NCBI GenBank assembly: GCA_036480015.1
Contig: JAZGFZ010000051.1
Location: 2,319 to 66,318, forward strand
DNA: 64,000 nucleotides
From: Algisphaera sp.
GTDB taxonomy: Bacteria > Planctomycetota > Phycisphaerae > Phycisphaerales > Phycisphaeraceae
Direction: 5' to 3'
Shown: positions 31,346 to 32,771 of the stretch, piece after piece
How positions within the stretch are numbered: the stretch's first letter is position 1
Layout of the letters: each line of letters starts with the position of its first letter
Notes under the pieces: generated by a model
What the model saw: the letters and a program-made list of their open reading frames with translations, nothing else
What the model was told of the DNA's origin: nothing
Database searches by the model: none
Translations under genes and position numbers: made by a program

Positions 31346-31534
31346 GCCTTTAAGTATGGCACATTTACTTTCGATCGACCTGCCGCCTGTAATCCGCCGC
31401 CACCGTACAGCATTGCCTCACCACGCGTAACCATTCGCGGGTTTTTGACCATCCTCCTTGAAGCCAATACCTACGTCGAAAAACCTCAAAGCAGAACCGC
31501 CAAGTGACTGTGTTCCCGTCAAGCATAAAACACC

Positions 31535-32542
31535 TCAAATTTTTGTGTCCCCGTGGCCTGCCGCGGCGGCGGGTAGATCCGCTTCAAGGGCCAGATAGTG
31601 CTGACGCATCAGTGTGTTGAGTTGGATCAAGAACCGACGCATCACCGCAATCTGGGCCACCTGTGTTGGTTTGCCACGCTTACGCAATGACTGATAAACG
31701 TCATATAACGCAGATCCTTTCCGGGTGTTGCTTAGGTTGGCCATGTACAACGCGGATCTCACATCTTTTCGACCGCCACGAATCGAACGGCGGCCGGTCT
31801 TGGAGCCCGAATCTCTCGCGAAGCAAGCAACCCCTACCAGGGAGGCGATTCGCTTGCGATTAACCTTGCCCAACTCAGGCAGTCCCACGATCAGGGCCAC
31901 CGCCGTCTTGCGACCCACGCCGCGCTGAGATTCAAGCAACTCAAGCTTGGCTTTGAGCTGATCGTCTGCAAGCAACAAAGCCTCGATTTTCTTCCCGTAC
32001 GTCTCCATCAAGTGGTTTTTTTGCTTAATGCTTCGACGTACCTCGGCCATCATGGGTTTCTCCCAGTCGTGGTTGCTGAACTCGAGTTTTCCAAGCCGAC
32101 ATTGCTCTGCAATTCGGTCTTTCATCAATTGTTGGCAGCGTTTACGCAACGCTTCAATTTCATATTGCTGCTCGGTTTCGGGCTTGCAGGGATGAATGTT
32201 TTGAGCCTGAGCGCCGTAAAGGGCCAAAACCTGGGCATCTATCCGATCGGTTTTAGCGGTAAAGCCGTGGGCGTTGGCAAAATACCGAACGCGTCGAGGC
32301 TGGGCGAGATGGACTTCTAGCCCTGCCTCACGCAGCGCCGTCAAAATCCGGCATTCATAACCCCCGGTGGCCTCGATGACCACCAATTCAACCTGTTGCT
32401 GTTTGAGGTCTTGGGCAAGGCGTTTGGCGGACTCCGGGGTATTGTCATGGCGTTTTTCCAGGTGTGGTTTGGGCCAGAACGCGATGTCCAAATGCATCTT
32501 GGAGATATCGATTCCAGCAGTACGAGAGTATGATGTGGCCAT
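31535..32542 (-). CDS. IS110 DEDD recombinase/transposase, intact
   Basis: GIDISK (D), IEATGGY (E), KTDRIDA (DD), RDSG (catalytic Ser), GGRKDVRSALY. Confidence 0.95.
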   Translation of the reverse strand: MATSYSRTAGIDISKMHLDIAFWPKPHLEKRHDNTPESAKRLAQDLKQQQVELVVIEATGGYECRILTALREAGLEVHLAQPRRVRYFANAHGFTAKTDRIDAQVLALYGAQAQNIHPCKPETEQQYEIEALRKRCQQLMKDRIAEQCRLGKLEFSNHDWEKPMMAEVRRSIKQKNHLMETYGKKIEALLLADDQLKAKLELLESQRGVGRKTAVALIVGLPELGKVNRKRIASLVGVACFARDSGSKTGRRSIRGGRKDVRSALYMANLSNTRKGSALYDVYQSLRKRGKPTQVAQIAVMRRFLIQLNTLMRQHYLALEADLPAAAAGHGDTKI

Positions 32543-32545
32543 TGC

Positions 32546-32756
32546 GGTTCCTGTCTTATTAACGAGCGCGGAAACAAAGCCTGCTCAAGTGACTGTACGG
32601 AAGGAGCCGTGAAGACCGACGGGTGTCCCAACTTCGTGACGAACATGACCTAGGTCGTGTTCCGGACGCAAACGGACGCCCCGCCGGACGGTCCCCACTC
32701 TGATGCATTCGGAGTGGGGTTTTTTCTTCACGGCCCGCCGCCACGGCAGGCCACGG
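32546..32756 (-). ncRNA. Putative bridge RNA
   Basis: Manual pairing gives an enclosing stem CCGTGAAGA/TCTTCACGG, a hairpin CCCCACTC/GAGTGGGG, a target loop (TTTGCGTC, CACGAAG) and a donor loop (ACAGTCACT, TAATAAG). Ends approximate. Confidence 0.8.
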
Positions 32757-32771
32757 TAATAGACTAATAAG

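What the first reader, a model, noticed from the sequence alone, without database searches (positions are those of the whole stretch)
31503..32771. Intact IS110 bridge-recombinase element whose four RNA guides can be read from the sequence
Seen, minus strand: the 5' non-coding end has a donor-type loop with ACAGTCACT (32588-32596), identical to the element's right end ACAGTCA-CT (31503-31511). The same loop has TAATAAG (32555-32561), the reverse complement of the left end CT-TATTA (32765-32771). A target-type loop has TTTGCGTC (32665-32672) against the flank TTTGCGC-C (one U:G wobble) and CACGAAG (32632-32638) against the flank CT-TGGCG (5/7, core-proximal AAG exact). Each loop is closed by an inner hairpin (GAACAC-GACC/GGTC-ATGTTC; GAGC/GCTC). 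Known: this is the IS621-type bridge RNA layout (CT core, LTG/RTG, LDG/RDG). The recombinase retains DEDD and the catalytic Ser. Inference: a functional, reprogrammable RNA-guided recombinase from a planctomycete, possibly an uncharacterised ortholog.
Basis: partly seen in the sequence, partly recalled or inferred. Interest (0 to 1): 0.92.

Follow-up and report, generated by a model that had tools for sequence, protein, structure and literature searches.

The report
Intact IS110 bridge-RNA insertion sequence
This is one sequence-intact copy of an IS110-family mobile element in a Phycisphaerae (Planctomycetota) genome, and its upstream non-coding RNA has the bridge-RNA layout described in 2024, so it is a real but ordinary new member of a known family.

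Summary
Window 31503-32771 (minus strand) is a 1,269-bp IS110-group element. It has a 335-aa DEDD/Ser recombinase gene, a 229-nt left end and a 32-nt right end, and a CT core at both junctions.

The four guide strings are at the stated coordinates. The two donor guides match the element ends far beyond chance. The left target guide matches the flank better than about 99.5% of CT sites in the window. The right target guide matches its present flank no better than chance (3 of 5 non-core bases). Homology still shows it is the right target guide, because relatives match their own flanks 7/7 at that position.

Relatives with 47-59% protein identity, found in many different flanks, end at the same boundaries. 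Helices around the guides covary (93% paired against 40-47% in slid controls). A covariance model built only from distant relatives hits the window once, at 32546-32688 (E 4.5e-8).

The host is a Phycisphaerae bacterium. NCBIfam already names the protein family "IS110 family RNA-guided transposase".

The verdict is a new member of a known kind. Activity and reprogrammability are inferred, not shown. The copy is single and sits in a high-copy repeat array.

Side observations: a conserved 23-bp pairing between the left end and the right-end-proximal region, and polymorphism clustered in the target loop.

The parts
31503..32771 (-). Whole IS110-group element, 1,269 bp counting the CT core at both junctions
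   Evidence: The ends are the same as in relatives that sit in many different flanks. The sequence was read.
32770..32771 (-). CT core at the left junction (flank TTTGCGC | CT | TATTAG)
31503..31504 (-). CT core at the right junction (ACAGTCA | CT | TGGCGG)
31535..32542 (-). Recombinase gene, 335 aa, with a DEDD RuvC-like domain and a Tnp domain (D11, E56, D98, D101, S244)
32546..32688 (-). [quoted passage not shown]
   Evidence: This is the only hit of covariance model R1, which was built from distant relatives: 37.5 bits, E 4.5e-8, full model length.
32605..32735 (-). Long-range stem P1 (32735-32726 pairs with 32614-32605). It encloses the 5' hairpin and the target-binding stem-loop.
   Evidence: Helix 2 of alignment A3 is 93.9% paired, with 5 pairs showing compensatory changes. 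The minimum-energy fold agrees.
32693..32719 (-). 5' stem-loop P2 (CCCCACUC...GAGUGGGG), preceded by an A-run. Read on the + strand it looks like an intrinsic terminator.
   Evidence: Helix 3 has 8 of 9 pairs with compensatory changes. The terminator scan found it on the + strand.
32616..32687 (-). Target-binding stem-loop: outer stem 32687-32674 with 32628-32616, inner hairpin 32662-32641
   Evidence: Helices 4 and 6 are 91.8% and 92.9% paired, with 7 and 5 compensatory pairs.
32664..32672 (-). Left target guide UUUGCGU plus CC. Seven bases pair with the left flank TTTGCGC (one G-U). The first C pairs with core C; the second C faces core T.
   Evidence: The register comes from the R1 alignment, where the consensus ...CCU lines up with UCC.
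32632..32638 (-). Right target guide CACGA plus AG. Its ideal right target is CT-TCGTG; the present flank is CT-TGGCG.
   Evidence: Homologous position in alignment A3. Relatives match their own flanks 7/7. For this copy the match is not above chance.
32548..32602 (-). Donor-binding stem-loop: outer stem 32602-32599 with 32551-32548, inner hairpin 32586-32580 with 32571-32564
   Evidence: Helices 7 and 8 are 95% and 100% paired. Helices 5 and 6 of alignment A6 are 92-96% paired.
32588..32596 (-). Left donor guide ACAGUCA plus CU, identical to the right end
   Evidence: The guide covaries with the right end across relatives.
32555..32561 (-). Right donor guide UAAUA plus AG, complementary to the left end CT-TATTA
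   Evidence: Helix 1 of A3 shows 3 compensating positions.
31517..31522 (-). TTGACG, the candidate -35 box of a promoter that forms only at the circle junction
   Evidence: A TTGAC box 14-17 nt before the right-end core is conserved in about 75 relatives. The junction promoter is known for IS621 (PMC11208160). It was not tested here.
32761..32766 (-). TAGTCT, the candidate -10 box, 17 nt after the -35 box once the right and left ends are joined
   Evidence: Spacing read. This is an inference.
32772..32778 (-). Left target (TTTGCGC), one unit of a tandem 8-9-nt repeat array
   Evidence: Depth is 100-1,300x against about 9x for unique sequence.
31498..31502 (-). Right target (TGGCG, continuing GTTCTG), the end unit of the repeat array
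32733..32757 (-). Left arm of a 23-24-bp subterminal inverted repeat
31550..31573 (-). Right arm of the inverted repeat. In this element it lies inside the last codons of the gene.

Best explanation
This is an IS110-group insertion sequence of a Phycisphaerae bacterium. Its left end encodes a bridge RNA and its single gene encodes a DEDD/Ser recombinase.

By analogy with IS621, the element would excise as a circle. The joined right and left ends would then create a sigma-70 promoter (TTGACG, 17 nt, TAGTCT) that drives the bridge RNA. In the RNA, the donor loop pairs with the two strands of the joined ends: ACAGUCA-CU with the right end and UAAUA-AG with the left end. The target loop pairs with a CT-containing unit of a repeat array through UUUGCGU-C and CACGA-AG. 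The recombinase would then exchange strands at the CT core.

Shown here: the protein family, intact catalytic residues, the element boundaries, the RNA fold supported by covariation, guide-to-end and guide-to-flank complementarity, and covariation of these in relatives.

Inferred only: transcription, circle formation, present activity of this copy, and reprogrammability.
For: - Protein family. Catalytic residues are invariant.
- Boundaries: families A and B (58-59% protein identity) each lie in at least 6 different flanks. Lineages C to I lie in further flanks. All end at CT-T(A/G)TTAG on the left and ACAG(T/C)CA-CT on the right, except lineage H, whose left end is CT-CAATAG.
- Donor guides: 9/9 and 7/7 matches. 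In 200,000 shuffles they never occurred together.
- LDG and right end covary: seven variants (ACAGTCA, ACAGTCG, ACAGTTG, ACGGTTG, ACGGTCG, ATGGTTG, ACAGCCA) each recur exactly at the right end, in 77 of 99 loci where a simple pattern found a donor-loop motif.
- RDG and left end covary: UAAUAAG with CTTATTA, CUAACAAG with CTTGTTAG, UAUUGAG with CTCAATA.
- RTG and right flank covary 7/7, wobble included, in lineages A, B, C, D, E, G and I.
- LTG and RTG follow the flanks in a more distant group: L092, L093, L097, L099, L115, L128.
- The left target of this copy ranks 12th of 5,558 CT sites.
- Structure: 93.1% of cells paired against 40-47% in slid controls, and 35 compensatory pairs against 9-14. 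For 67 sequences the figure is 92.5% against 33-43%.
- Independent covariance model: a single hit at 32546-32688.
- The minimum-energy fold reproduces the model, z = -3.6.
Against: - The RTG fits the present flank at only 3 of 5 non-core positions, which is chance level.
- A better site, TTTGCGC-CT-TCGAG at minus-strand 34927, lies 2 kb away and is empty.
- The LTG has C, not U, opposite the second core base. Families A and B, which have moved repeatedly, also lack that pair.
- The element is at single-copy depth in run X1 (about 10x, like the chromosome). In run X2 the left end adjoins the same 9 flank bases, which suggests the same locus in a related strain.
- No circle junction or empty site was seen, but only assembled contigs were available.
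- No sigma-70 promoter is predicted in the integrated state.
- There is no Rfam family to compare with.
Confidence: 0.85

Rival explanations
1. It is the same kind of element, but this copy is an immobile resident. It would have inserted long ago into a repeat array, been inherited vertically, and no longer match its own site or transpose.
For: - Single-copy depth, and in run X2 the left end adjoins the same 9 flank bases.
- The RTG fits the flank at chance level, and a better site nearby is empty.
- No second copy is in the window, and no closer relative than 59% identity is in the protein collection.
- The C-terminus runs 15 residues longer than in relatives, and the right end is about 50 nt shorter.
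Against: - The reading frame is open and full length, and all catalytic residues are kept.
- Both donor guides are perfect.
- All helices are kept. One compensatory change, C32659U with G32644A, is seen between strain variants.
- The RTG is identical to that of lineage I, which matches its own flank 7/7, so it looks like a working guide for CT-TCGTG units, which this genome has.
- IS621 itself excises rarely (PMC13626964).
Confidence: 0.25
2. The left-end structure is only a 5' untranslated regulatory region of the transposase mRNA, and its matches to the ends and flanks are accidental.
For: - The 3' strand of the donor-loop outer stem (GGAA) overlaps the ribosome-binding site AGGAA, 7 nt before the ATG.
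- A 23-bp pairing between the left end and the 3' end of the gene suggests mRNA-level control.
Against: - The donor matches never occurred together in 200,000 shuffles.
- The guides covary with DNA ends and flanks that lie outside the RNA, across dozens of lineages.
- The protein belongs to the family for which guidance by this RNA has been shown (PMC11208160, PMC11208158).
Confidence: 0.03
3. It belongs to the IS1111 group, which uses a seekRNA or bridge RNA encoded in the right end.
For: A long subterminal inverted repeat is present, and such repeats are a hallmark of the IS1111 group (PMC11208160).
Against: - The right end is only 32 nt and the left end is 229 nt.
- The structured RNA lies upstream of the gene.
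- The repeat arms lie 14 and 47 nt inside the ends, rather than flanking the core closely.
Confidence: 0.01

Closest known systems
IS621 of Escherichia coli (IS110 group; bridge RNA; PDB 8WT6)
   Same: - A DEDD RuvC-like domain plus a Ser Tnp domain.
- A CT core.
- A bridge RNA in the left end, with a 5' stem-loop followed by a target-binding and a donor-binding stem-loop.
- Guide order LTG, RTG, LDG, RDG. Left guides read like the top strand; right guides are complementary to it.
- A -35 box in the right end for a junction promoter.
- Insertion into repeated extragenic sequence.
(PMC11208160.)
   Different: - About 30% protein identity.
- The left end is 229 nt rather than 191 nt.
- An extra long-range stem encloses the 5' hairpin and the target loop.
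- A 23-bp inverted repeat joins the left end and the right-end-proximal region, where IS110-group elements are reported to have 2-3 bp.
- The LTG pairs with only the first core base.
- LTG and RTG can pair with each other, because the target is a tandem repeat.
ISCro4 / IS622 bridge recombinase (PDB 9T56)
   Same: It is the best match among solved structures (E 8.7e-18, residues 8-302) and has the same domain order.
   Different: It is a distant orthologue from Enterobacteria. Nothing is known about activity of the planctomycete protein.
ISPpu9 and ISPpu10 of Pseudomonas putida (IS110 group, inserting in REP sequences)
   Same: These IS110 elements have a target loop that directs them to one class of repeated intergenic sequence (PMC12288879; abstract of bioRxiv 10.64898/2026.03.19.712850). 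Here the flanks are high-copy repeat units.
   Different: The target here is a tandem array of 8-9-nt units (CTTGGCG, CTTCGTG, CTTTGCG), not a palindromic REP hairpin. Relatedness to ISPpu9 or ISPpu10 was not measured here.
Unnamed relatives in Phycisphaerae metagenome-assembled genomes and metagenomes (P0002-P0011; for example GCA_023300125.1 contig JALZVY010000096.1)
   Same: - 47-59% protein identity.
- The same left-end architecture.
- The same right end in all but lineage I, and the same or a near-identical left end.
- The same class of repeat target.

   Different: They have different target guides, a longer right end, and a shorter protein (320-323 aa in most). None is characterised or named.

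Membership tests
IS110 family, IS110 group (bridge recombinase plus bridge RNA) | Recombinase with an N-terminal DEDD RuvC-like domain and a C-terminal Tnp domain carrying a catalytic Ser | tested here: met
   PF01548 (E 3.6e-22) and PF02371 (E 2e-11). NF033542 scores 168.8 bits against a cut-off of 140. D11, E56, D98, D101 and S244 are invariant and align with IS621.
IS110 family, IS110 group (bridge recombinase plus bridge RNA) | A long non-coding left end upstream of the gene and a short right end | tested here: met
   The left end is 229 nt (32771-32543) and the right end is 32 nt after the stop codon (31534-31503).
IS110 family, IS110 group (bridge recombinase plus bridge RNA) | [quoted passage not shown] | tested here: met
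   Alignment A3 is 93.1% paired, with 35 compensatory pairs. Alignment A6 is 92.5% paired. Model R1 hits 32546-32688. The minimum-energy fold agrees. The target loop is partly closed by 3-5 LTG-RTG pairs.
IS110 family, IS110 group (bridge recombinase plus bridge RNA) | The donor loop pairs with both element ends around the core dinucleotide | tested here: met
   LDG 9/9 and RDG 7/7. Both covary with the ends in relatives.
IS110 family, IS110 group (bridge recombinase plus bridge RNA) | The target loop pairs with both flanks around the core dinucleotide | tested here: inconclusive
   The LTG criterion is met: 7 of 7 plus the first core base, ranking 12th of 5,558 sites. For the RTG only the core plus 3 of 5 bases pair, which is chance level. 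In relatives, the RTG at the homologous position matches 7/7.
IS110 family, IS110 group (bridge recombinase plus bridge RNA) | The same core dinucleotide at both junctions, with no long target duplication and no terminal inverted repeats | tested here: met
   CT is present at 32771-32770 and at 31504-31503. The termini CTTATTAG and ACAGTCACT are not inverted repeats.
IS110 family, IS110 group (bridge recombinase plus bridge RNA) | A promoter reconstituted across the joined right and left ends | tested here: inconclusive
   A TTGAC box is conserved at a fixed distance from the right end in about 75 relatives, and a TAnnnT hexamer follows in the left end at 17-nt spacing. There are no expression data.
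IS110 family, IS110 group (bridge recombinase plus bridge RNA) | The RNA is expressed and binds the recombinase; a circular intermediate forms; recombination is RNA-programmed | not testable with these tools
   Only assembled contigs of four runs were available, and they show no circle junction. No run labelled as RNA was found.
IS1111 group (guide RNA in the right end) | The guide RNA is encoded in a long right end downstream of the gene | tested here: not met
   The right end is 32 nt, and the structured RNA lies upstream of the gene.

The most novel reading that the evidence does not exclude
This Phycisphaerae clade may carry an undescribed control layer on top of the standard bridge RNA. 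A conserved 23-bp duplex would form between the first nucleotides of the junction-promoter transcript (32755-32733) and the 3' end of the recombinase message (31573-31550). Together with a long-range stem that clamps the target loop, it could couple bridge-RNA release, mRNA stability or translation to full-length transcription. A target loop whose two guides can pair with each other may add self-masking.
Probability: 0.15. Interest if true: 0.5.

Novelty: new member of a known kind. Interest (0 to 1): 0.3.

Why it matters
It adds a well-delimited IS110 orthologue from Planctomycetota, with all four guides, the core and the natural target class readable from sequence. That makes it a candidate for the growing panel of bridge recombinases.

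Its relatives give a compact natural series in which target guides change together with the insertion sites. This could help define tolerance rules such as variable LTG register, an unpaired second core base, and G-U pairs.

It does not change what is known about the mechanism.

Tried and rejected
- Rfam 15 has no matching family. The best hits were chance-level, with E values of 0.28 and above.
- A search for other copies in the window found none.
- The exact protein lies on a single contig of GCA_044240345.1.
- The genome and metagenome scans returned only relatives of 35-57% identity and no second copy.
- Public runs holding the sequence are kept only as assembled contigs. They cannot show rare circle junctions or empty alleles, and none was seen. 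No run labelled as RNA was found.
- The sigma-70 scan finds no promoter in the integrated copy, which is expected if the -35 box lies in the right end.
- The minimum-energy fold of the whole 229-nt left end pairs the 5' repeat arm with part of the donor hairpin and hides the donor loop. Folding from 32740 gives the covariation-supported structure.
- My simple pattern for the donor loop mis-hit inside the gene in family A and in L022/L024. Those rows were ignored.
- L096 was dropped from the model seed because it was misaligned.
- The idea that the RTG had decayed after insertion was rejected as the only reading, because lineage I has the identical RTG and a perfectly matching flank.

Full report
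**What is there.** On the minus strand, window 31503-32771 holds a 1,269-bp unit. It has a 229-nt non-coding left end, an open reading frame of 335 codons (32542-31535) and 32 nt after the stop codon. The protein carries Pfam DEDD_Tnp_IS110 and Transposase_20. It passes the curated cut-off of NCBIfam NF033542, 'IS110 family RNA-guided transposase' (168.8 bits against 140). Its best matches among solved structures are ISCro4 (E 8.7e-18) and IS621 (E 8.8e-16) over residues 8-302, and identity to IS621 is about 30%. D11, E56, D98, D101 and S244 are invariant among 19 relatives and align with the IS621 motifs GID, IEATG, KTDxxDA and ESGS. The frame is intact. It runs about 15 residues longer than in the closest relatives because the stop codon lies further downstream.

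All four guide strings sit at the stated coordinates.
- Donor side: ACAGTCACT (32596-32588) equals the last nine bases of the element, and TAATAAG (32561-32555) is the complement of its first seven. In 200,000 shuffles of the left end these appeared 112 and 761 times separately and never together.
- Left target guide: I removed the element and scored every CT dinucleotide of the window on both strands (5,558 sites). The real left flank TTTGCGC is matched by UUUGCGU better than at all but 12-26 sites.
- Right target guide: the right flank TGGCG is matched by CACGA at 3 of 5 positions, as at 965-1,355 other sites. So the left target guide is significant and the right target guide, for this copy, is not.
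- Best site: the best-scoring site in the window is an empty one 2 kb away, at minus-strand 34927, reading TTTGCGC-CT-TCGAG.

**Boundaries.** No second copy exists in the window, and the exact protein is on one contig only. The nearest proteins are 47-59% identical. I fetched their contigs.
- Two families (P0005 and P0004) each lie in at least six unrelated flanks. Seven further lineages add more sites.
- In all of them similarity starts at CT-TATTAG (CT-TGTTAG in lineages G and I, CT-CAATAG in lineage H).
- Similarity stops at ACAGTCA-CT (ACAGCCA-CT in one lineage).

**Do the guides track the DNA?** In the definitions of Durrant et al. (PMC11208160), the left guides read like the top strand and the right guides are complementary to it. 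That is the pattern here.
- Left donor guide: across relatives, its 7-mer plus CT recurs exactly downstream of the gene in 77 of 99 loci where a simple pattern found a donor-loop motif. There are seven different variants, always 14-17 nt after a conserved TTGAC.
- Right donor guide: it changes with the left end, pairing UAAUAAG with CTTATTA, CUAACAAG with CTTGTTAG and UAUUGAG with CTCAATA. RNAalifold even predicted these as pairs with compensatory changes.
- Right target guide: it matches the right flank 7/7, wobble included, in lineages A, B, C, D, E, G and I. Examples are CGCAGAG with CTCTGCG, CACAGAG with CTCTGTG and CACGAAG with CTTCGTG.
- More distant group: both target guides follow the flanks closely in L092, L093, L097, L099, L115 and L128.
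- This copy: its right target guide is identical to that of lineage I, whose flank fits perfectly. The guide therefore looks functional and aimed at CT-TCGTG units, which this genome has. The copy itself sits at a CT-TGGCG unit.
- Left target guide in this clade: the matches are good but imperfect, with a register that varies by one base. Only the first core base is paired in most lineages, including the multi-copy ones.

**RNA structure.** An alignment of ten lineages of the clade supports the following helices:
- a long-range stem, 32735-32726 with 32614-32605;
- a 5' hairpin, 32719-32693;
- a target stem-loop with an inner hairpin;
- a donor stem-loop with an inner hairpin.

Of all cells, 93.1% are paired against 40-47% when partners are slid by 1-3 columns. 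Compensatory changes occur in 35 pairs against 9-14 in the slid controls.

As an independent test I built a covariance model from 23 relatives of 35-45% protein identity, leaving out the whole clade. It hits the 64-kb window once, at 32546-32688 on the minus strand, over its full length (37.5 bits, E 4.5e-8). It also hits upstream of the gene in 66 of 72 other loci. The resulting alignment is 92.5% paired, with every pair compensated somewhere. That alignment is fitted to the model, so the figure leans towards the structure.

The minimum-energy fold of 32740-32546 reproduces the model (z = -3.6). The donor guides lie in an 11+11-nt internal loop. The target guides lie in a loop partly closed by three LTG-RTG pairs. 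Such pairing follows from the target being a tandem repeat, because the left target then resembles the right target. Rfam has no family for this RNA.

**Surroundings and host.** Ribosomal protein S1 of the window is closest to Phycisphaerae and Planctomycetota proteins, and the nearest relative of the element is in a Phycisphaera metagenome-assembled genome. The flanks are arrays of 8-9-nt units (CTTGGCG, CTTCGTG, CTTTGCG) that recur in several intergenic regions of the window. In a metagenome run holding this sequence, the flanks have 100-1,300x depth. The element and the neighbouring genes have 9-10x. So the target is a high-copy, REP-like repeat and the element is single-copy. In run X2 the left end adjoins the same 9 flank bases, which suggests the same locus in a related strain.

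**How it most likely works.** By analogy with IS621 (PMC11208160, PMC11208158, PMC13626964), the recombinase-RNA complex excises the element rarely as a circle. Joining the ends places TTGACG (31522-31517) 17 nt upstream of TAGTCT (32766-32761) and raises bridge-RNA expression. The donor loop holds the joined ends and the target loop holds a repeat unit containing CT. Strand exchange at CT then inserts the element. These steps are inferred. What is shown here is sequence, structure and covariation.

**Verdict.** The finding is real and correctly interpreted. It is a new member of a known kind, because bridge RNAs were predicted for most IS110 elements in 2024 and the protein family is already named accordingly. 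The claim of present function is open. The most unusual feature is a conserved 23-bp pairing between the left end and the right-end-proximal region, which has compensatory changes and mismatches of the G-U type only. It deserves a small follow-up but does not change the classification.

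Noticed in passing
window 32733-32757 and 31550-31573 (minus strand); same positions in L005, L013, L022, L023, L160, L165: A 23-24-bp inverted repeat links the left end (14-17 nt from the tip) with a site 41-47 nt before the right end. 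It is kept in 7 lineages, with compensatory changes at about 7 positions. Its only internal mismatches are T in the left arm opposite G in the right arm, which is a G-U pair in the sense RNA. The IS110 group is reported to have only 2-3-bp subterminal repeats.
   Followed up: partly
window 32644-32668: In runs X2, X3 and X4 the element carries 7 substitutions clustered within 25 nt of the target loop, while the rest of the left end is identical. They include a compensatory pair (C32659U with G32644A) and a changed left target guide (UUUGCGUC to UUUGAGCC). Run X4 holds both versions.
   Followed up: partly
window 32772-32780: In run X1, the closest to the window, the left flank lacks one 9-nt repeat unit and reads CCTTCGTGC-CT|TATTAG instead of CCTTCGTGCCTTTGCGC-CT|TATTAG. 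This is either a unit-number polymorphism or an assembly difference right next to the insertion.
   Followed up: partly
window 30560-30780, 32772-33010, 34860-35000, 35270-35500, 7690-7800, 11330-11400, 53340-53420: Intergenic arrays of 8-9-nt units (CTTGGCG, CTTCGTG, CTTTGCG, TTTCGTA) occur, often as facing inverted sets. An example is the 27-nt arms at 35287-35313 and 35331-35357. Their depth in a metagenome is 10-140 times that of unique sequence. They are REP-like repeats of Phycisphaerae and the natural target of this IS clade.
   Followed up: partly
window 32693-32719 (+ strand): The 5' hairpin of the bridge RNA, read on the opposite strand, is a G+C-rich stem followed by TTTTTTCTTC. That is an intrinsic-terminator-like site for antisense transcription running out of the element. 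The A-run before the hairpin is conserved in relatives.
   Followed up: no
window 32548-32551 and 32542: The 3' strand of the donor-loop outer stem (GGAA) overlaps the likely ribosome-binding site AGGAA, 7 nt before the ATG. Folding of the donor loop could therefore mask translation initiation.
   Followed up: no
window 34915-34933 (minus strand): An unoccupied site, TTTGCGC-CT-TCGAG, fits the element's target guides better than its real insertion site does.
   Followed up: yes
L044 about 2450-3820; L030 downstream of the gene: In one Acidobacteriota copy the right end is interrupted at the -35 box by about 1.35 kb of foreign DNA before the normal end resumes. One Planctomycetota copy ends in a long poly-T run that looks like an assembly artefact.
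   Followed up: no
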